This document shows, in pieces, positions 54,538 to 62,841 of a stretch of DNA of 64,000 nt (position 1 is the first letter of the stretch; each line of letters starts with the position of its first letter). Location of the stretch: the NCBI GenBank assembly GCA_046541575.1, contig JBKHDA010000001.1, forward strand, positions 24,243 through 88,242. The letters are read 5' to 3'. Position numbers and translations under genes: made by a program. The notes beneath the pieces were generated by a model. That model was given only the letters and a program-made list of their open reading frames with translations, searched no databases and had not been told where the DNA came from. This DNA comes from Halanaerobium sp. Lineage in GTDB: Bacteria; Bacillota; Halanaerobiia; Halanaerobiales; Halanaerobiaceae.

Positions 54538-55518
54538 TTATTCCTGGTTAATTTCTTCATAAGTTTCATCAGCTCTCTCTAATACATCATCCGGGATTTC
54601 CAGATCAAGATTCTCAGCAGCTTTTGTATTTAAATATAATTTTAGTTCATCAGAACTTTCAACAGCCATTTCAGCTGGATTTTCACCATTAAGAACTCGG
54701 GCTGCCATTTTACCGGTTTGAATACCTAATAATTTATAGTCAATTCCTAAAGTTGCAATCGCTCCCTGTTTAACCTGCCCATTTTCTGAGGCAAATACCG
54801 GGATATTGTTTTCATTAGTAATATTTAAAACAGATGGTAAAGCAGAAACAATAATATTGTCAGTTGGTACATAAATTGCATCAACATCTCCAATTAGAGA
54901 GGAGGTAGCCAGACTAACCTCACTACTGTTGCTTACTGTTCCTTCATGCAGTTCAATTCCCATTTCTTCAGCAGTTTCTTTTGCCAGGTCTACCTGGACA
55001 ACTGAATTCACTTCACCTGGATTATAAAGTACTCCGAGGTCAGAAATTTCCGGAAGGAACTCTTTTATTAATTTAACCTGTTCAGCAACCGGATTCATAT
55101 CCGTAGTTCCTGTAAGATTTCCACCGGGAGCTTCCATACTTTCTACTATACCTGCTTCTTCAGGATCAGTAACTGCAGTAAATAATACCGGTGTATCTGA
55201 AATTACATTTGCTGCGGCCTGAGCATTAGGAGTAGCAATTGCTAAAATTAAATCAAGATCATTATCCTTGAACTGTTGAGAAATTGATTGAGCAGTAGAA
55301 AAATCGGCCTGAGCGTTTTGAGTATTAAACTCAACCTCATCTTCACTAAATCCTTCTTCTGCTAAACCTTCAATAAAGCCTTCACGTGCTGCATCTAAAG
55401 CTGGATGCTCAACAAACTGTGAAATACCTATCTTATATTCCTGAGCACCTGCAGTTAAAGCGGTGGTTAAAATCAACATAAAAGTTAACACTAATACAAT
55501 TAAAAGTTCTTTTTTCAT
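54538..55518 (-). CDS. TrpX-like (aromatic amino acid-type) ABC binding protein
   Basis: QFVEHPALD, AIATP, AVTDP, PTDN and GIQTG motifs; start ATG 55518 behind AGGGGAG. Confidence 0.9.
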   Translation of the reverse strand: MKKELLIVLVLTFMLILTTALTAGAQEYKIGISQFVEHPALDAAREGFIEGLAEEGFSEDEVEFNTQNAQADFSTAQSISQQFKDNDLDLILAIATPNAQAAANVISDTPVLFTAVTDPEEAGIVESMEAPGGNLTGTTDMNPVAEQVKLIKEFLPEISDLGVLYNPGEVNSVVQVDLAKETAEEMGIELHEGTVSNSSEVSLATSSLIGDVDAIYVPTDNIIVSALPSVLNITNENNIPVFASENGQVKQGAIATLGIDYKLLGIQTGKMAARVLNGENPAEMAVESSDELKLYLNTKAAENLDLEIPDDVLERADETYEEINQE

Positions 55519-55700
55519 TTTTACTCCCCTTTCTAACTGGTAGTGGGGATAATAATAAAAAAACACTCCTGGTGGAGTGTTAAATAGCTTTCAGCTAAAT
55601 AGTTTAAAATAGGGTATAAATGCCCCTTGATTAAACTAATAGCTCAGCTTTCCCTACAAATTTCTCCTACCGTATTACCATGCTACCAGTTATTTTATTT
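55519..55700 (-). promoter_or_regulatory. structured leader/attenuator of the TrpXYZ-like operon
   Basis: Terminator AACACTCC-ACCA-GGAGTGTT plus U-tract (55556-55581); anti-SD TCCCC; 10-bp long-range inverted repeat 55534-55543 / 55683-55692. Confidence 0.75.
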
Positions 55701-55705
55701 TCTTT

Positions 55706-55735
55706 ATTATACTATTATAATAGCACTTTTGTCAA
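55706..55735 (-). promoter_or_regulatory. sigma-A promoter of the TrpXYZ-like operon
   Basis: TTGACA, 18-bp spacer, TATAAT on the minus strand. Confidence 0.75.
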
Positions 55736-55775
55736 CTGTAATTAGAAATAGCTTTTCTCTAACATAAGTATTTTT

Positions 55776-56198
55776 TTAAGACTGGTCATCCAGTAATGAA
55801 CGATGGCTTAATCCAACAGTAACTTCATTTAAATTAAACATACCTACACCAAAAAATACAGCAACAACAATATGTTCTCCACTTCGGGCAACACCAATCT
55901 TACCTCCGACATTTAACCCCATTGTTCTGGGCATGATCTGAGTAACTGCATCATGCGCTGCCCCGGCAACTGCTCCCTGAGCAACGTGGGATTCATTTAT
56001 TATATTTTCTCTTTTAGCAGCAATAACTGCTCTTTCAATAATTTCAGGTACTGATTTATTAAATTCTCCCCCAAAATCAACAGCTGCAGTATTTATATCA
56101 TCAGCTGCAAAATCTTTTTTTAATTCTTTTTCTTCACTTCGACTTGATATTGCCATTTTGATAGCTGCTTTTGCAGTTTCTAAACTATTATGTTCCAT
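55776..56198 (-). CDS. hutP: HutP-family RNA-binding protein (variant without the His ligands)
   Basis: 140 aa; AAVDFGG...IERAVIAAKRE...GAVAGAAHDA...GGKIGVARSGEHIVVAVFFGVG...GLSHR fits the clostridial HutP family. Confidence 0.85.
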   Translation of the reverse strand: MEHNSLETAKAAIKMAISSRSEEKELKKDFAADDINTAAVDFGGEFNKSVPEIIERAVIAAKRENIINESHVAQGAVAGAAHDAVTQIMPRTMGLNVGGKIGVARSGEHIVVAVFFGVGMFNLNEVTVGLSHRSLLDDQS

Positions 56199-56426
56199 AA
56201 TTTTTCCTCCTCTGTATTTGTTGTCTTAATTATAGCAGAGATTTTAGCTAAAGTGAAATCAAATAAGTAAATAATTATTGATTTAAAAATTTTTTTATTT
56301 TAACTATATAAAATTGAGCTTTAATTGCATAATTAGCTGATATAATTTATAATATATTAATGTAATTATTTTCAAATCAATTTTCTGCTGATAAAATTAA
56401 TTTTAATTATAAAGTATTAAAAAAGT

Positions 56427-56987
56427 TTGGAGGGGTTTAAAATAAATATTTTACTCGTAGCTTTAGCCCTGGCTCTGGATGCAGCTGGTGTGACAATGGC
56501 AATCGGTTGTGGTACTAAAACAAATTTAATAGAAAAAATCAAAGTTGTTTTTTCTTTTGGTTTTTTTCAATTTTTATTTGCTCTGCTTGGAGGTTTAGTG
56601 GGGCATTATGTTGATCAGAATTTTTTTGCAATCTCTAATTACTTTAGTGGTACAGTTATATTTTTGCTGGGTATTTTTCTGATCAGAGAAGGATATAAAA
56701 ATGAAGAAGAGTGTATTTATAGAAAGCTTAGTCTCTGGGTAGTTATCGTTTTAGGTGTAAGTGTGAGTATTGATGCCCTTGGTGCTGGTTTTTCACTGCT
56801 TTATGATTTAGATTACTCATTAATTTTACAGGACTCTTTAATAATTGGTTTAATTGCTTCTATAATTACTGCAGTTTCTTTTAAAATTGTTATCTACATT
56901 AAACATATTTCTTTAGTGGAAAAATATGCAGATTATTTAGGTGGATTTATTTTATTATTAATTGGAATTAATACTTTTTTTGTTTAA
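56427..56987 (+). CDS. mntP: MntP-family manganese efflux protein
   Basis: ALALDA, FGFFQ and VSIDALGAG motifs, six TM segments; start uncertain. Confidence 0.8.
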   Translation: MEGFKINILLVALALALDAAGVTMAIGCGTKTNLIEKIKVVFSFGFFQFLFALLGGLVGHYVDQNFFAISNYFSGTVIFLLGIFLIREGYKNEEECIYRKLSLWVVIVLGVSVSIDALGAGFSLLYDLDYSLILQDSLIIGLIASIITAVSFKIVIYIKHISLVEKYADYLGGFILLLIGINTFFV

Positions 56988-57013
56988 AATAGAAATATAT
57001 CTATATAAATTTT

Positions 57014-57067
57014 AAAAGAACTGCCTCAGTCTGATCTTACTTGCAAACTGAGGCAGCTTTATTTTTT
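57014..57067. terminator. bidirectional terminator
   Basis: CTGCCTCAGT / ACTGAGGCAG between convergent genes. Confidence 0.75.
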
Positions 57068-57110
57068 GAATCATATTGAGAAAGTTTCTGTTCCAATATT
57101 TGGATAATAC

Positions 57111-58277
57111 TTATATTTTAGTTAAAAGAGTAATTACTTCGATATGTTTCGTGTGTGGAAACATATCTACTGCTTTAAATTTTTGCAGTTTGTAATTATG
57201 ATTTTCCAGTTCTTTTAAATCTCGTGCTAAGCTCTTTGGATTACAGGAGATATATAAAATCTCATTTGCTTCTGCGGCAGCAATTTTTGTAAGAGCTTTA
57301 GGATTAATCCCGGGTCTTGGAGGGTCAATAACCAGCAGATCTGGACTCTGATCAATTTCATTAATTTTTTCCAACACATCTCCAGCAATATATTCTGTAT
57401 TTTGAACATTATTTAGCCTGGCATTTTCAGCAGCTCTCTCAGCAGCTTCCTGGTCAATTTCTATCCCATAGATTTTTGCAGCATCAGCAGCAATAGACTG
57501 GGAAATAGTTCCAGCTCCACAGTAAAGATCATAAACCACCTTATCTTCAGCACTGCTTATATATTTTTCTGCCTCAGAGTATAATAATTCTGCTCCTTTT
57601 GTATTGGTCTGGAAAAAGGAAAGAGAATCAATTTTAAATTGATTATCCAGCAGCTGATCATAAAAGTAATTACGTCCGTGATAGATTTTCATTTCATCAC
57701 AGCTTACCTGATCTGAAAAATCATCATTAATTGTCTGGATAAATCCAACCAGCTCTCCCTGTAAATCAAGAGCTTTTAATTGTTCAGTTAGGGGAGAAAA
57801 ATCATGATTCTGCTGGCTGGTAGTAATCAGATTGGCTACAAGCTCTCCAGTATTGATGCCCTTTCTAATTACCAGGTTTCGCAAAAAACCTTCTCTTAAT
57901 TTAATATGGTATTTTTTGAATTCATTTTCCCGGCAGTATTCTAAGATAGTACTTAAAATATCTCTAAAATCCTGATCAACTAATAAACATTGATCAACTG
58001 TAATTACATCAAATCTTCTGCCCCGGGGATGCATTCCCAGCTGCAGAGTACCGCCTTTTTTTAAATCCCCAAAACTAAACTCCATATTATTTCTGTATTC
58101 ATAAATATCAGGACTTGCTAGAATCCCTTCAAAATTATCAGTTTCAATTTTTTTTTCTTTAAAAATTTCTAAAAGATTATTCTTTTTGTCTTTCAGCTGT
58201 TTAGAATAGGGTACTTCCTGAATTGAACAGCCCCCACAGCGATCATAATGAACACATAAATCTTTATTTTTTGTCAA
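57111..58277 (-). CDS. rlmD: 23S rRNA m5U methyltransferase (RlmD-type, no TRAM domain)
   Basis: CxHYxxCGGC Fe-S motif, SFFQTN, DLYCGAG, DPPR, YISCNP and DMFPHT motifs. Confidence 0.9.
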   Translation of the reverse strand: MTKNKDLCVHYDRCGGCSIQEVPYSKQLKDKKNNLLEIFKEKKIETDNFEGILASPDIYEYRNNMEFSFGDLKKGGTLQLGMHPRGRRFDVITVDQCLLVDQDFRDILSTILEYCRENEFKKYHIKLREGFLRNLVIRKGINTGELVANLITTSQQNHDFSPLTEQLKALDLQGELVGFIQTINDDFSDQVSCDEMKIYHGRNYFYDQLLDNQFKIDSLSFFQTNTKGAELLYSEAEKYISSAEDKVVYDLYCGAGTISQSIAADAAKIYGIEIDQEAAERAAENARLNNVQNTEYIAGDVLEKINEIDQSPDLLVIDPPRPGINPKALTKIAAAEANEILYISCNPKSLARDLKELENHNYKLQKFKAVDMFPHTKHIEVITLLTKI

Positions 58278-58316
58278 AATTGAGCCTCCTATAATTTATT
58301 TAAGCTGCAGATCAGC

Positions 58317-59642
58317 CTAAATTGTTTGATAGATATTAAAAAGCATAATAAATAATACGGCTGCCGGTACAATGTATTTTAAAAAGAGAGAATAAGTATT
58401 TCCAATTTTAAAACGACTGTTTTTATTTGCTTCTTCCACTGCATTTTTGCTGCCCCAGATATGACCGACAAAAATTGAGGTTAAAATTCCTCCTGTTGGT
58501 AAGAAAATAGAGTTGGAAAACCAGTCATAGGTATCAAGCAGATCCATTCCTAAAAAGCTGAAGTTAGAAAATGAGCTGTAACCTAAAAGTGGTGGAATTC
58601 CTACCAAAAATATAACAAAACCCATTAAATAAGAAGCTTTTTTTCTCTTCCAATCATATTCATCAATTAAAAATGCTACTACAACTTCCAGCATTGAGAT
58701 AGAAGAAGTTAAAGCTGCAATTGTAAGCAGTAAAAAGAAGATTAATGAGAAAAAAGTGCCAAAAGGCATTTGGGTAAAAACAGCAGGCAGAGTAATAAAA
58801 GTTAAACCAGGGCCAGATGCTGGATCAAGCCCAAAGGCAAAAACAGCTGGAAAAATTGCAAAACCTGCCAGTAAAGCTACAGCTGTATCAAAAATTAGTA
58901 CATAAGCTGCACTTTCATTAATGCTTTCTTTTTTACTTAAATAGCTGCCGTAGGTAATCATAGCTCCCATACCGAGGCTTAAGGTGAAAAATGCCTGTGA
59001 AATTGCATCAGCAAAGGTCTGAAAATTAATTGCTGAAAAATCTGGTTTTAGATAGAAATTGAGTCCTGCTGCAGCGCCATCCAGTGTAACTGAGCGAATG
59101 ATTAATAAAAAAATAATTCCGAATAAAATTGGCATCAAAAATTTAACAAGTTTTTGAATTCCATTGACTACGCCGGCACCAATAACAGCGATTGTTAAGA
59201 ACATAAAAATACCATGCCATAAAATCGGCTCTGTCAGACTGCTGATGTGAGCCTCGAAAATTTGGGGGAAATTACTTTCAGCAGTAAAAGTCAGTGATTT
59301 AAAGATATAAGATATTCCCCAGCCGGCAATAACAGAATAGTAACTTAAAATAACAAAACCTGAGAGAACACCAAGTGCTCCAACCAGAGGCCAGGCAGTG
59401 TCAGGTGCCATTTTTTTAAAAGCGCCAATGGGGTTTTTCTGAGTAATCCTTCCCAGAGACATTTCAGAAACTAAAATTGGATAACCAATAAATAAGATTG
59501 CTGCTAAATAAATTAAAATAAAAATTGCTCCACCATTTGTCCCCGTAATAAAAGGAAAACGCCAGATATTACCAAGGCCGATGGCCGATCCAGATGCAGC
59601 CAGAATGAAGCCAAGTCTGGAAGTCCAGTTTTCTCTTTCCAT
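58317..59642 (-). CDS. NSS/SNF sodium-dependent amino-acid transporter (MhsT-like)
   Basis: GSAIGLGNIWRFP, QAFFTLSLGMG and GPGLTF motifs. Confidence 0.93.
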   Translation of the reverse strand: MERENWTSRLGFILAASGSAIGLGNIWRFPFITGTNGGAIFILIYLAAILFIGYPILVSEMSLGRITQKNPIGAFKKMAPDTAWPLVGALGVLSGFVILSYYSVIAGWGISYIFKSLTFTAESNFPQIFEAHISSLTEPILWHGIFMFLTIAVIGAGVVNGIQKLVKFLMPILFGIIFLLIIRSVTLDGAAAGLNFYLKPDFSAINFQTFADAISQAFFTLSLGMGAMITYGSYLSKKESINESAAYVLIFDTAVALLAGFAIFPAVFAFGLDPASGPGLTFITLPAVFTQMPFGTFFSLIFFLLLTIAALTSSISMLEVVVAFLIDEYDWKRKKASYLMGFVIFLVGIPPLLGYSSFSNFSFLGMDLLDTYDWFSNSIFLPTGGILTSIFVGHIWGSKNAVEEANKNSRFKIGNTYSLFLKYIVPAAVLFIMLFNIYQTI

Positions 59643-59838
59643 AATAAATCCTCCTATTTGTTTTAATTTTTAATATTTGCTTTTGCCAGTTTATTTTATC
59701 ATATTAGCAGGCAGGCATCAATGCCTAAATTTTAAGGATTAGAGGCGTTTAATATCACAATAAATTTAAAATATCCTTATTTATTTGAAAACGATTAAGT
59801 AAAGTTAAATACATTTTTTTGATTTTTGTCGTAAAAGC

Positions 59839-59867
59839 TGGAAATTGTTGAATTAATTTGTTATAAT
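59839..59867 (+). promoter_or_regulatory. sigma-A promoter of the plus-strand NSS gene
   Basis: TGGAAA, 17-bp spacer, TG-extended TATAAT. Confidence 0.6.
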
Positions 59868-59875
59868 ACATTCAA

Positions 59876-60022
59876 CCTGATTAGTTTAGTTGAGAAGGAT
59901 ACAATCTTTAGATTAGCAAAGTAATAATAATTTAGCAGTAGTTAATGATTGTATCAGAGTAGAGAGCAGTTGATATCTTAATTTTTTTTAATTTTAGCTG
60001 AGTTGAGCCAGGATAAATCAGG
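59876..60022 (+). promoter_or_regulatory. structured 5' leader with clustered NAG triplets
   Basis: Five clusters of three NAG triplets; stems CCTGATT / AATCAGG and GATACAATC / GATTGTATC. Confidence 0.7.
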
Positions 60023-60065
60023 AAAATAAAAAATTGAGTAGAAAGAAGTGAAGGAGGAAAGTAAA

Positions 60066-61541
60066 ATGGAACAGAATCGTGAACAATGGGGAAGTAGAGT
60101 TGGTTTTGTTTTGGCAACAATTGGTTCAGCAGTTGGACTGGGTAATATCTGGCGTTTTTCTTATATGGCTTATGAAAATGGTGGAGGTGCCTTTTTATTT
60201 CCGTATATTTTTGCTCTGCTGACAGCGGGAATACCTCTGATATTACTGGAAATGGGCTTTGGATTTTTTACCAGAACTTCAGCACCTAGTTCATTTCGAA
60301 AGGTTGGTAAAAAGTTTGAATGGGTAGGCTGGTGGTCAGTACTGGTGGCCTTTACAGTTACAGTCTATTATATTGTTATTATTGCCTGGAGTCTATTATT
60401 TGTTTTTAAATCATTTAATCTGGGCTGGACTGCTAACCCGGAAGCCTACTTTTTTGGAGATTTTCTTCAGTTTTCAGGTAGTGCTTTTGATCTAGGTGGA
60501 ATTCAGTGGCCAATATTCTTAGCTTTAATTGGGGTCTGGTTAATTAATTATGTCATCATTGCCGGTGGAGTACAAAAAGGTATAGAAAAAGCAAGTAAAA
60601 TATTTATGCCGCTTTTGGCAGCAATGCTTTTAATTATTGTATTTAGAGGCTTAACTTTACCCGGATCAATGGATGGAGTAAGGGCATTTCTGGCACCTGA
60701 TTTCAGCAGAATTTTTGAACTGGATATCTGGCTGGACGCCTATGGACAGATTTTCTTTTCCCTAAGTCTGGGTTTTGGAATTATGATTGCTTATTCCAGT
60801 TATCTACCTAAAAAATCAGATGTTATTAAAAACGGTACAATTGCAGCTTTTGCAGATGCAATTTTTGCTATTGTAGCCGGACTTGGTGTTTTTGGTATCC
60901 TGGGCTACATGGCACAGACTCAGGGAGTACCAGTCGCAGATGTTGCAACTTCAGGTATTGGATTGGCATTTATTGCTTTCCCACAGGCAATCAATTTATT
61001 ACCTGCTTTACCACAACTTTTTGGATTATTATTTTTCTTATCCCTTACAGTTGCCGGTCTGTCATCAAGTGTTTCCTTAATTGAATCTGTAGTTTCAGCT
61101 TTAATTGATAATTTTAGTTTAAGCCGCACAAAGGCTGTTACAATGGTTTCAATTGTAGGATTCTTAATGGGATTACCAATGGTTACAGAGGGTGGTCTGG
61201 CGATTTTAGATATTTTTGATCACTTTATTAATATTTTTGGTCTGTTAACTGTTGGATTTGTAGAAATGCTTGTTTTAAGTTATGCTTTTGATCTTGATAA
61301 AATTAAAGATAACATGAATCCAAGTTCTGACTATCAAGTTGGTCCAACCTGGAAAGCTCTAGTTAAGTTTGTCAGTCCTATTTTAATTGGTTTTGGTTTA
61401 ATCCAGAATGTAATATCAGAATTCGCTACAGTTTATGGTGGCTATGCACTGGCAGAAGTTATTACTTTTGGCTGGGTAGCAGTAGCTTTAGTACTTTTAT
61501 TTGCAATTTATCTCGGCAAACGAGAAAATACTATAGTTTAA
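60066..61541 (+). CDS. NSS/SNF sodium-dependent amino-acid transporter
   Basis: GSAVGLGNIWRF, QIFFSLSLGFG and GIGLAFIAFP motifs; ATG behind AGGAGG. Confidence 0.94.
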   Translation: MEQNREQWGSRVGFVLATIGSAVGLGNIWRFSYMAYENGGGAFLFPYIFALLTAGIPLILLEMGFGFFTRTSAPSSFRKVGKKFEWVGWWSVLVAFTVTVYYIVIIAWSLLFVFKSFNLGWTANPEAYFFGDFLQFSGSAFDLGGIQWPIFLALIGVWLINYVIIAGGVQKGIEKASKIFMPLLAAMLLIIVFRGLTLPGSMDGVRAFLAPDFSRIFELDIWLDAYGQIFFSLSLGFGIMIAYSSYLPKKSDVIKNGTIAAFADAIFAIVAGLGVFGILGYMAQTQGVPVADVATSGIGLAFIAFPQAINLLPALPQLFGLLFFLSLTVAGLSSSVSLIESVVSALIDNFSLSRTKAVTMVSIVGFLMGLPMVTEGGLAILDIFDHFINIFGLLTVGFVEMLVLSYAFDLDKIKDNMNPSSDYQVGPTWKALVKFVSPILIGFGLIQNVISEFATVYGGYALAEVITFGWVAVALVLLFAIYLGKRENTIV

Positions 61542-61576
61542 GTAAACTTTAATTATTAAGTAAATTATAAATTAAG

Positions 61577-61618
61577 AGGCTGACTTTAATGTTGTCAACA
61601 TTAAAGTCAGCCTTTTTT
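61577..61618 (+). terminator. intrinsic terminator (18-bp perfect stem)
   Basis: AGGCTGACTTTAATGTTG-T-CAACATTAAAGTCAGCCT followed by TTTTT. Confidence 0.88.
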
Positions 61619-61733
61619 GATTTATTGTCGATTATTAATTATAATTATAAATGGAATCTTTGAGTTTTATTAATGAGTAAAATAAATAAGTAGTTTAGTC
61701 CAGAAATAATTTTAAAAAGGGAGCTGATAATTT

Positions 61734-62234
61734 ATGGAAGAAATTTTTGAACGGAGAAGTATCAGGAAGTATCAGGATAAAAATGTGGAAGAAGAAAAAA
61801 TAGAAAAATTATTAGAAGCAGCAGCTGCAGCACCATCTGCTGGTAATGAACAGCCCTGGCATTTTATTGTAATTAAAGATAGAGAAAGACTTAATCATCT
61901 GGCAGAGATTCATCCTTATGCTAAAATGCTTAAAGAAGCACCACTTGCTATTGCAGTTTGTGCAGACTTAAATAAGCAGAAGCATCAGGGTTTTTGGGTA
62001 CAGGACTGCTCAGCAGCAACTCAAAATATTTTGCTGGAAGCTGTGTCTTTAGATCTGGGATCTGTCTGGATTGGCTGTCATCCGGCTGAAGATAGAGAAA
62101 AAGTAGTTAGTGAATATTTAGAAGTTCCAGCTGATTTTAAAACTCTATCTTTAATTGCGGTTGGTTATCCAGCTGAAGAAAAAGGCAGAGTTGATAGACT
62201 AAGTGATGATATTATTCATTATGATAAGTGGTAA
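61734..62234 (+). CDS. nitroreductase-family flavoprotein
   Basis: RRSIRKY, APSAGNEQPW, QDCSAATQN and LGSVWIG motifs. Confidence 0.94.
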   Translation: MEEIFERRSIRKYQDKNVEEEKIEKLLEAAAAAPSAGNEQPWHFIVIKDRERLNHLAEIHPYAKMLKEAPLAIAVCADLNKQKHQGFWVQDCSAATQNILLEAVSLDLGSVWIGCHPAEDREKVVSEYLEVPADFKTLSLIAVGYPAEEKGRVDRLSDDIIHYDKW

Positions 62235-62242
62235 AATTGATA

Positions 62243-62285
62243 ATAAAAGCAGACAGATTGGAAGCTGAAATCTGTCTGCTTTTAT
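62243..62285. terminator. bidirectional terminator
   Basis: ATAAAAGCAGACAGATT / AATCTGTCTGCTTTTAT between convergent genes. Confidence 0.85.
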
Positions 62286-62289
62286 CATT

Positions 62290-62841
62290 TTATAAAAAAT
62301 CAAATCCCGACATCACAGCACTTAAAAAGGCAAGAACTAATATTAGAGTATATTCTTTCTGGAAAATTTCTTTACTTTCCTTGAGATCTAATTGTTCTTT
62401 TAAAGCAGCGACTACAATGAAAACAAGATAAATTGCTGTTAAAGCAGCTGCTATAATAATTAAATCCTGAGAACTATAATTAACCTTTTCTATAATATTA
62501 AACTGAAGTGATAGTACTGCTGGCAGAGCTATAAACTCATGTTTGATACCGGCTATCCAGTCCCCCTGCAGTAAACCACCGCTTTTTATTAACCTAACTG
62601 CAATTAAAGAATTAATGAAATAAACTGCAGGTATTAAAAAGTCAGCAGAGCCAAGATAATAGGAAAATATCCAGGCGGATAAGGCACTAAAGGCCATGGC
62701 TCCTGTTATAATTAATCCATTTTTAAAGGCAGACCTTAATTTAGGAGTTTCTACTATAATTAGCAGTACTGCTGTGTAAGAGATTAATACTATATTATTT
62801 TTCAGCAGCTGATCCCAGAACAGTAACATTATTTCACTCAT
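62290..62841 (-). CDS. RnfA-like membrane protein, cysteine-free
   Basis: 183 aa, six TM; LLKNNIVL start, AALKEQL and C-terminal MSGF resemble RnfA; follows the rnfE-like gene. Confidence 0.65.
   Translation of the reverse strand: MSEIMLLFWDQLLKNNIVLISYTAVLLIIVETPKLRSAFKNGLIITGAMAFSALSAWIFSYYLGSADFLIPAVYFINSLIAVRLIKSGGLLQGDWIAGIKHEFIALPAVLSLQFNIIEKVNYSSQDLIIIAAALTAIYLVFIVVAALKEQLDLKESKEIFQKEYTLILVLAFLSAVMSGFDFL

What the first reader, a model, noticed from the sequence alone, without database searches (positions are those of the whole stretch)
59876..60022. Structured leader displaying five clusters of three NAG triplets
Seen: UAG-uu-UAG-uu-GAG (59882-94); UAG-au-UAG-ca-AAG (59909-21); UAG-CAG-UAG (59933-41); GAG-ua-GAG-ag-CAG (59957-69); UAG-cu-GAG-uu-GAG (59995-60007). 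More NAGs run into the SD. A perfect 9-bp stem (59898-906 / 59947-55) loops out clusters 2-3, and a 7-bp stem (59876-82 / 60016-22) closes the whole. No strong terminator hairpin is present. Known: 5-nt-period (G/U)AG repeats are the TRAP signature, usually up to 11 in a row; groups of three NAG are the HutP signature. Inference: a multivalent landing pad for the nearby HutP variant (or TRAP), acting on translation or stability, or titrating the protein.
Basis: partly seen in the sequence, partly recalled or inferred. Interest (0 to 1): 0.8.

Follow-up and report, generated by a model that had tools for sequence, protein, structure and literature searches.

The report
Hairpin-split TRAP site before transporter
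In salt-loving Halanaerobium bacteria, the leader of an amino-acid transporter gene carries conserved GAG/UAG repeats at the five-base spacing used by the tryptophan-sensing ring protein TRAP, split into groups by conserved hairpins, so TRAP likely switches the transporter off when tryptophan is plentiful.

Summary
The stretch is the predicted 5' leader (promoter 59839-59867) of a Halanaerobium NSS/SLC6 amino-acid transporter (60066-61541). Its (G/U)AG triplets are enriched at a 5-nt period (6 pairs vs 0.98 in shuffles, p=0.0008), not at HutP's 7. The genome encodes TRAP. Genome-wide only three loci reach this density: the trpE leader, the trpP leader and this one. The leader is found in 14 of 18 same-genus genomes. 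Both stems are kept, the inner one with compensatory changes. The nearby HutP gene travels with a different motif (three YGGUAR, 8-nt period). Likely mechanism: Trp-loaded TRAP gathers the split repeats plus SD-proximal triplets and blocks ribosome entry (inferred; termination or stability effects remain open). Against: no binding data, substrate unproven, short repeat-poor leaders in a sister genus, and one repeat-rich homolog in a genome where mtrB was not found. New variant of a known system.

The parts
59839..59867 (+). Predicted sigma-A promoter: -35 TGGAAA, 17-nt spacer, extended -10 TGnTATAAT; start of transcription inferred at about 59874
   Evidence: 10 of 12 matches, best of 5 sites in the region; the -10 region is shared by homologs (partly by construction of the search pattern)
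59876..59882 (+). P1 5' arm (closing helix at the predicted transcript 5' end)
   Evidence: 5-bp core paired in 19 of 19 aligned leaders, 2 pairs vary on one side only
59882..59897 (+).
   Evidence: (2 or more period-5 repeats in 18 of 19)
59898..59955 (+).
   Evidence: 94% of cells paired, 3 of 5 pairs with changes on both sides; 2 or more period-5 repeats inside P2 in only 4 of 19
59957..59969 (+).
   Evidence: 19 of 19 with 2 or more
59972..59994 (+). A+U-rich, U-heavy spacer (23 nt here, mostly 23-31 nt, 80-97% A+U); weak or no hairpin
59995..60007 (+).
   Evidence: 18 of 19 with 2 or more
60016..60022 (+). P1 3' arm, 9-10 nt after the last J2b repeat in 16 of 18 scored leaders
60023..60061 (+). 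A-rich linker, near-invariant GAGTAG (60036-41), further NAG triplets (60043, 60046, 60051, 60054, 60059); GAG 60054 lies in the Shine-Dalgarno GGAGG (60053-57)
   Evidence: invariant alignment columns; spacing here is mixed (2 or more period-5 (G/U)AG in only 2 of 19)
60066..61541 (+). NSS/SLC6 sodium-dependent transporter, 491 aa, the gene the leader precedes; substrate not established
   Evidence: (NF037979, E 3e-33)

Best explanation
This is the predicted 5' leader of a Halanaerobium NSS amino-acid transporter and carries (G/U)AG repeats at a 5-nt period in three conserved groups, which likely form a split binding site for the tryptophan-activated ring protein TRAP, and bound TRAP would repress the transporter, most likely by blocking ribosome entry. 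Shown: repeats, spacing, conservation, the P2 hairpin by covariation, an mtrB gene with RNA-binding residues intact, and rank equal to the trpE and trpP leaders. Inferred: (1) P2 folds out about 55-60 nt so groups J1 and J2a read as one run, and P1 holds the 5' and 3' groups close; no single group (2-4 repeats) reaches the 7 repeats that stable binding needs, but together they give about 9. (2) With Trp high, TRAP binds these 9 and fills its remaining subunits with triplets near or in the Shine-Dalgarno, as on B. subtilis trpP, trpG and ycbK. (3) With Trp low, the SD is open and the transporter is made. Odds: TRAP is the binder about 0.85; translation block as the main output about 0.55 overall.
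For: mtrB present, E 5.6e-38, 1e-27 to solved TRAP. It keeps E36, K37, K56, R58, D39, T30 and T49, the residues named for RNA binding and activation in passages of PMC1474065. Period-5 enrichment p=0.0008; summed over 19 related leaders 105 vs 18.6 expected at period 5 and 15 vs 18.5 at period 7; first base U or G in 204 of 266. Joint first of 1819 upstream regions with trpP. In all windows of both genome strands only 3 loci reach 5 or more pairs: trpP, trpE and this leader. The trpE leader has about 11 repeats followed by a terminator-like hairpin. Natural control: trpP leaders score 3-8 pairs in 22 of 22 loci from mtrB-positive genomes and 0-1 in 8 of 8 from genus g9, where mtrB was not found (30 of the 47 trpP matches were fetched; kin are not independent). 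Four-repeat runs per genome: median 7 in 48 mtrB-positive vs 1 in 13 genomes without a hit. The leader model hits once in 14 of 18 same-genus genomes and 0 of 42 others; all 18 have mtrB. Nine repeats outside P2 in 15 of 19 leaders (11 directly, 4 after removing overlapping registers by eye; the others have 5, 6, 10, 13). No terminator; SD mostly unpaired in folding models. Stable binding needs 7 or more repeats (passage, PMC4027176); direct ribosome blocking on trpG, trpP, ycbK (passages, PMC1635260, PMC10327191, PMC4347634). NSS genes under Trp T-box control exist in the B. cereus group (passages, PMC2494555).
Against: No binding or expression data. SD-proximal triplets are irregularly spaced (period-5 (G/U)AG in 2 of 19), weaker than in trpP. 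GAGTAG before an SD also occurs in distant homologs and in genomes without mtrB, so it may be a separate element. The 76%-identical orthologs of sister genus g3 have 83-86-nt leaders with P1 but only 0-2 period-5 (G/U)AG pairs although G020 and G021 have mtrB; L009 (mtrB-positive G010) is decayed (1 pair) and L022 (62%) scores 1. L164, a 44%-identical homolog, has 9 period-5 pairs in a 1.5-Mb partial genome where mtrB was not found by family, by protein or at the usual dnaE-pfkA locus. The pocket has Phe at the LeuT-259 position and Leu at the LeuT-359 position (motif mapping via MhsT, LeuT numbering recalled), not the Gln that lets LeuT carry Trp (passage, PMC9599917), so Trp transport is unproven. 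P1 has low modelled probability in most long leaders and no two-sided change among the 19. Models often pair the repeats with each other, and structure is reported to inhibit TRAP binding (Xirasagar 1998, title seen in a reference list only). This TRAP has H33N, H51N and T52V near the Trp pocket, although T52 has only a limited role.
Confidence: 0.55

Rival explanations
1. TRAP binds the same split site but ends transcription without a classical terminator, in the U-rich tract (59972-94) or the A-rich tract after P1 (60023-35).
For: [quoted passage not shown] A conserved 80-97% A+U tract follows group J2a, and nine repeats are complete just before the A-rich tract.
Against: Only 5-6 conserved period-5 repeats precede the U-rich tract (fewer than 7), and conserved group J2b lies beyond it. 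The tract after all nine is short and A-rich. The same genome's trpE leader uses a proper hairpin plus U run.
Confidence: 0.18
2. TRAP binds inside the P1-closed loop and acts on mRNA stability (opening or holding the 5'-terminal helix), or the leader mainly titrates TRAP.
For: P1 pairs the predicted first bases of the transcript and is the only part kept in the short g3 leaders (modelled probability 0.9-1.0). A similar 5' closing helix is seen on the nearby ABC-operon leader. The nine best repeats all lie inside P1 and end about 45 nt before the SD here.
Against: No half-life data. A single-copy mRNA leader is an unlikely dedicated sponge. Protection of 5' ends by stems in Firmicutes is recalled knowledge, not tested here.
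Confidence: 0.12
3. A HutP-family hexamer binds groups of three NAG, possibly only the close-packed triplets (UAG-CAG-UAG inside P2; GAG-UAG before the SD).
For: Three HutP-family genes in the genome, one 3.7 kb away. HutP reads three XAG per face. Period 3 is mildly enriched in homologs (33 vs 15.3). GAGTAG and the L164 repeats occur where HutP-family genes are common and mtrB was not found.
Against: HutP site I is period 7, at chance here. HutP acts on a terminator, and there is none. The neighbouring HutP gene is followed by a YGGUAR x3 period-8 motif in 18 of 20 loci, also in g9; the motif is single-copy in this genome and is in 0 of 19 of these leaders. Urocanase was found in only 1 of 5 genomes tested and not in this one.
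Confidence: 0.06
4. The repeats are a by-product of an RNA fold (G-U-rich self-pairing of UAGUU-like units) or a relic, and no protein reads them now.
For: The minimum-energy fold pairs group J1 with J2b over about 15 positions; in L009 two changes improve that pairing while spoiling triplets; L164 has repeats without a detectable mtrB.
Against: The pairing partners of the groups differ from homolog to homolog and no such helix is in the consensus. Spacers vary (AT, TT, AA, CT...) while AG and the period stay fixed. The only two equal loci are orthologs of known TRAP targets.
Confidence: 0.09

Closest known systems
B. subtilis TRAP translational targets trpP (yhaG), trpG (pabA), ycbK
   Same: (G/U)AG repeats with 2-nt spacers ahead of a transporter gene, triplets reaching the Shine-Dalgarno, no terminator, mtrB and trpP in the same genome.
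   Different: Most repeats lie 45-170 nt upstream of the SD in three groups, separated by a conserved 55-60-nt hairpin and an A/U spacer and enclosed by a long-range helix. The target is an NSS/SLC6 transporter. Those sites are described as overlapping the initiation region; that some have long spacers is recalled (PMC305772 not held).
B. subtilis trpEDCFBA leader (TRAP attenuator)
   Same: Same triplet code and period; total near the 11 subunits; A+U-rich tract downstream of repeats.
   Different: There the 11 repeats are one run overlapping an antiterminator and followed by a terminator. Here they are split by structure and no terminator is found. The genome's own trpE leader is of the classical type.
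B. subtilis hut terminator / HutP
   Same: XAG triplets in groups of about three separated by a helix or linker.
   Different: HutP site I is period 7 and lies in a terminator that HutP opens; here period 5, U/G first base, no terminator, groups not fixed at three.
T-box-controlled NSS transporters (B. cereus group) and TnaT/MhsT
   Same: NSS genes under amino-acid-specific leader control, including Trp.
   Different: No T-box or other Rfam family matches at or near gathering score; the pocket lacks the Gln-359 feature.

Membership tests
TRAP-binding leader (TRAP regulon) | Multiple GAG/UAG triplets with 2-3-nt spacers | tested here: met
   Period 5 enriched, p=0.0008; 5.7-fold over shuffles in 19 homologs
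TRAP-binding leader (TRAP regulon) | 9-11 repeats in all (7 or more for stable binding) | tested here: met
   9 period-5 NAG outside P2 in 15 of 19, plus SD-proximal triplets; met only if the groups are joined across P2 and the spacer
TRAP-binding leader (TRAP regulon) | Repeats form one continuous single-stranded run | tested here: not met
   Groups of 2-4 split by a 51-72-nt hairpin (38 nt in L020) and an 11-38-nt spacer; this is the variant feature
TRAP-binding leader (TRAP regulon) | mtrB in the genome with RNA- and Trp-binding residues | tested here: met
   E36, K37, K56, R58, T30, T49 kept; H33N, H51N, T52V differ
TRAP-binding leader (TRAP regulon) | Site overlaps SD/start or sits before a terminator | tested here: inconclusive
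   One GAG in the SD and AAGs beside it, but irregular spacing; no terminator; no consistent SD-sequestering switch
TRAP-binding leader (TRAP regulon) | Regulated gene belongs to Trp metabolism or transport | tested here: inconclusive
   NSS amino-acid transporter; substrate not fixed by pocket residues
TRAP-binding leader (TRAP regulon) | Trp-dependent binding and repression | not testable with these tools
   Needs gel shift, footprint and reporter
HutP target | Three XAG at a 7-nt period per site | tested here: not met
   Period 7 at chance; reference spacing from passages of PMC2425495
HutP target | Sites lie in an intrinsic terminator | tested here: not met
   0 terminator-like sites
HutP target | HutP-family gene present | tested here: met
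   Three copies; the nearby one is linked to another motif
T-box or other Rfam cis-element | Match to an Rfam model at gathering score | tested here: not met
   11 weak matches in 55000-62500, all far below gathering score; none a T-box
Leader-peptide attenuator | Conserved uORF with regulatory codons | tested here: not met
   The possible start before the SD falls in all three frames with lengths from 5 codons to in-frame

The most novel reading that the evidence does not exclude
The leader is a pre-closed RNA belt for the TRAP ring. P1 clasps a loop whose single-stranded path, once P2 and the A/U spacer are looped out, is about 56 nt (median of 18, range 48-67), close to the 55 nt that wraps an 11-mer: 9 repeats plus a 9-10-nt linker worth two subunits. 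RNA structure would then build rather than block the TRAP site and set its Trp threshold, a new binding mode for this classic regulator on a new class of target. The length match is post hoc and partly follows from counting nine 5-nt repeats.
Probability: 0.2. Interest if true: 0.75.

Novelty: new variant of a known kind. Interest (0 to 1): 0.5.

Why it matters
TRAP is a textbook regulator, but its described targets are a handful of Bacillus mRNAs with mostly unbroken single-stranded repeats. A conserved site that must be assembled across a long hairpin would show that structure can organise TRAP sites, which would explain why simple repeat searches miss targets. It also extends the regulon to an NSS transporter in salt-in halophiles and nominates that transporter as a likely Trp or aromatic/neutral amino-acid carrier. 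It is cheap to test. It is not a new class of system.

Tried and rejected
Rfam scan: no family. Conserved uORF at the triplet before the SD: frames differ, rejected. SD-sequestering switch: forcing the upstream repeats open gave no consistent change in SD accessibility over 19 leaders (P1 values for L013, L099 and L102 there used the wrong 3' arm, corrected for lengths). Conserved J1/J2b helix: not in the consensus. GAGTAG as a general SD-upstream motif of this genome: only 6 of 1841 genes vs 4 and 9 in control windows. Divergent mtrB in g9 or G061: not found by family, by protein or at the syntenic locus. The nearby HutP gave no hit among solved structures by sequence, so its ligand residues were not mapped. 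Motif searches for hut enzymes and anti-TRAP in this 80%-complete genome found nothing (motifs recalled). Expression: no RNA holder listed, so no reads were laid. Four of 14 metagenome pattern hits (L100, L101, L111, L112) were unrelated and dropped; duplicates, three short g3-type leaders plus L109, and two leaders lacking the promoter pattern (L011, L014) were left out of the 19-row alignment. Earlier-findings look-ups returned nothing. Ten literature searches listed no paper on TRAP control in Halanaerobiales or of an NSS gene; the library lacks most subscription journals, including comparative trp-regulation surveys that I recall and could not see, so a prior prediction is not excluded. 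No supplements were read.

Full report
Observation. The best promoter-like site of the region lies just upstream (59839-59867, extended -10, 10 of 12 matches) and no terminator-like site is found, so the element is the predicted 5' leader, about 192 nt, of the ORF at 60066-61541, an NSS/SLC6 sodium-dependent transporter. Named records with 77-98% identical proteins are Halanaerobium. The count of NAG triplets is what composition gives (28 vs 27.7), but their spacing is not: 6 (G/U)AG pairs at period 5 against 0.98 in 5000 shuffles (p=0.0008), with periods 4 and 6-9 at chance. Folding energy is ordinary (z=-0.63); a 9-bp perfect stem arises in 2.75% of shuffles, a 7-bp stem in 38.7%. Rfam has no match near a gathering score.

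Which protein. The genome has mtrB and three HutP-family genes. TRAP reads GAG/UAG with 2-3-nt spacers (passages of PMC3913778); HutP site I triplets are 7 nt apart and lie in a terminator (passages of PMC2425495). In a scan of 1819 upstream regions this leader tied for first with trpP. In a scan of all windows on both strands only three loci reached five or more period-5 pairs, each with six: the trpP leader, the trpE leader and this one. The trpE leader has about 11 repeats followed by a hairpin and U run, and 10 of 11 trp-operon upstream windows from relatives scored 6-9 pairs (the eleventh, L057, scored 1; its longer leader probably put the repeats outside the 400-nt window). [quoted passage not shown]

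Natural controls. mtrB was found in 48 of 61 genomes, all 18 same-genus relatives among them, and in 0 of 10 of genus g9, which has HutP-family genes in 10 of 10. trpP leaders scored 3-8 pairs in 22 of 22 fetched loci from mtrB-positive genomes and 0-1 in 8 of 8 from g9 (30 of 47 matches fetched). Runs of four repeats number a median of 7 per genome with mtrB and 1 without. Kin are not independent, so these are descriptive. The HutP gene 3.7 kb away is followed, in 18 of 20 loci including g9, by three YGGUAR units at an 8-nt period, with a terminator-like hairpin matching my pattern in 17 of those; the motif is single-copy here and is in 0 of 19 transporter leaders. That HutP therefore appears to have its own target.

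Conservation and anatomy. Nineteen distinct long leaders were aligned. A covariance model finds the leader once in 14 of 18 same-genus genomes and in 0 of 42 others; the four misses show only the 35-37% paralog or no match. The consensus has two helices. P1 is paired in 19 of 19 with one-sided changes only; P2 is 94% paired with two-sided changes at 3 of 5 pairs, above shuffled and slid controls (related sequences can inflate this). A helix of 8-15 bp at the P2 position was found in all 19, doubtfully in L020. Two or more period-5 repeats occur before P2 in 18 of 19, right after it in 19 of 19, in the last group in 18 of 19, but inside P2 in only 4 of 19. The total outside P2 is nine in 15 of 19; P2 sits within a few bases of the flanking repeats; the last repeat is 9-10 nt from the P1 3' arm in 16 of 18.

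Mechanism. Stable TRAP binding needs seven or more repeats (passage of PMC4027176), so no group suffices alone; folding out P2 and closing P1 would bring nine together (inferred). Further triplets run into the Shine-Dalgarno, and one repeat over the ribosome site is said to be enough to block it (passage of PMC4347634); trpG, trpP and ycbK are repressed this way (passages of PMC1635260 and PMC10327191). With no terminator, a mostly open SD and no consistent SD-sequestering switch, I commit to Trp-TRAP blocking translation initiation (0.55). TRAP-induced termination in an A+U tract (0.18) and an effect on stability or titration (0.12) share the same binder; HutP (0.06) and no binder (0.09) make up the rest.

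Results against. The SD-proximal triplets are irregular, and their GAGTAG core also appears before SD sequences in distant homologs and in genomes without mtrB. Orthologs of sister genus g3 keep only P1 with 0-2 (G/U)AG pairs; L009 and L022 are repeat-poor despite mtrB; most distant homologs score 0-3 whatever their mtrB status, L129 with 6 and mtrB being an exception in favour. L164 has nine pairs in a partial genome where mtrB was not found three ways; relic, mis-binning or another binder cannot be told apart. P1 is weak in energy models. The transporter pocket has Phe and Leu at the LeuT 259 and 359 positions (numbering recalled), not the Gln linked to Trp transport (passage of PMC9599917), although NSS genes under Trp T-boxes are known (passages of PMC2494555).

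Comparison and novelty. It works like the B. subtilis trpP/trpG/ycbK sites and meets the sequence tests for a TRAP target except continuity; binding is untested. It fails the HutP tests of period and terminator. Ten searches of the held library listed nothing on TRAP in Halanaerobiales or on a TRAP-controlled NSS gene; passages of PMC9413887 concern HisR and do not mention TRAP, HutP or NSS, and passages of PMC12591593 cover only Bacillus HutP. All papers were seen as keyword passages, not whole; two were not held; no supplements were read, and subscription-journal surveys may hold an earlier prediction. Verdict: real, conserved, a new structured variant of a known regulatory site; interest 0.5. 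The boldest reading, an RNA belt of about 56 nt pre-closed by P1 to fit the TRAP ring, is not excluded (0.2).

Noticed in passing
window 55691-55535 (- strand), leader of the TrpX-like ABC operon just downstream of the HutP-family gene 56198-55776; L191-L209: Three YGGUAR units at an 8-nt period (55688-55667), then a terminator (about 55581-55557). The third unit can pair with the terminator's 5' arm (antiterminator), and a long closing helix ends beside the SD. Present in 18 of 20 HutP loci, also where mtrB was not found; single-copy in this genome. Candidate new binding motif for a HutP paralog that would cause, not relieve, attenuation of an aromatic amino-acid ABC transporter. Deserves its own study.
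   Followed up: partly
L070, L073-L075, L077, L080, L081, L083 (trpP upstream regions, genus g9): In 8 of 8 fetched trpP loci from the genus where mtrB was not found, a short upstream ORF of about 19-31 codons with a conserved MDTWW motif replaces the TRAP repeats: a likely Trp-Trp leader peptide, i.e. a switch from TRAP to ribosome sensing.
   Followed up: partly
G000:C28:15736-15936 (L001); L220, L223, L224, L227, L228: TRAP of this genus and sister genus g3 carries H51N plus T52V (and H33N) in or near the Trp pocket; 15 of the 20 fetched relatives keep T52. May alter Trp affinity or specificity.
   Followed up: partly
L068 (G000:C46, - strand, about 1620-1395): Classical TRAP attenuator ahead of trpE: about 11 repeats, a hairpin with U run, and a second conserved hairpin with U run near the SD.
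   Followed up: partly
G000:C64:8358-8423 (L096): trpP leader with a two-part TRAP-type site: three repeats, an A-rich linker, then repeats over the SD and start codon.
   Followed up: partly
L164:1385-1500 (G061): Nine period-5 (G/U)AG pairs before a 44%-identical NSS homolog in a partial genome where mtrB was not found; its trpP match is interrupted by stops. Unexplained.
   Followed up: partly
L024-L031, L254, L257, L259, L263: Distant NSS homologs share an SD-like GGGGGTGAT/GGAGGTG element followed by GAGTAG-n-TAG, upstream of the real SD and independent of mtrB; function unknown.
   Followed up: no
L019, L021, L106, L109: 83-86-nt minimal leaders of the same transporter in sister genus g3: same promoter and P1, with a purine-rich loop of 3-4 NAG and a second hairpin next to the SD.
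   Followed up: partly
window 59642-58317 (- strand): Divergent second NSS transporter, close to MhsT (E 1e-113); its upstream region lacks repeats. Two NSS genes, a HutP-family gene and a TrpX-like ABC operon lie within about 9 kb, a likely aromatic amino-acid uptake cluster.
   Followed up: partly
G000:C13:9581-10051 and G000:C63:10441 onward: The two other HutP-family genes (about 157 aa; and a longer one fused behind another domain) sit among envelope and ispD/ispF-like genes, not amino-acid genes (gene labels from my reading of the translations).
   Followed up: no
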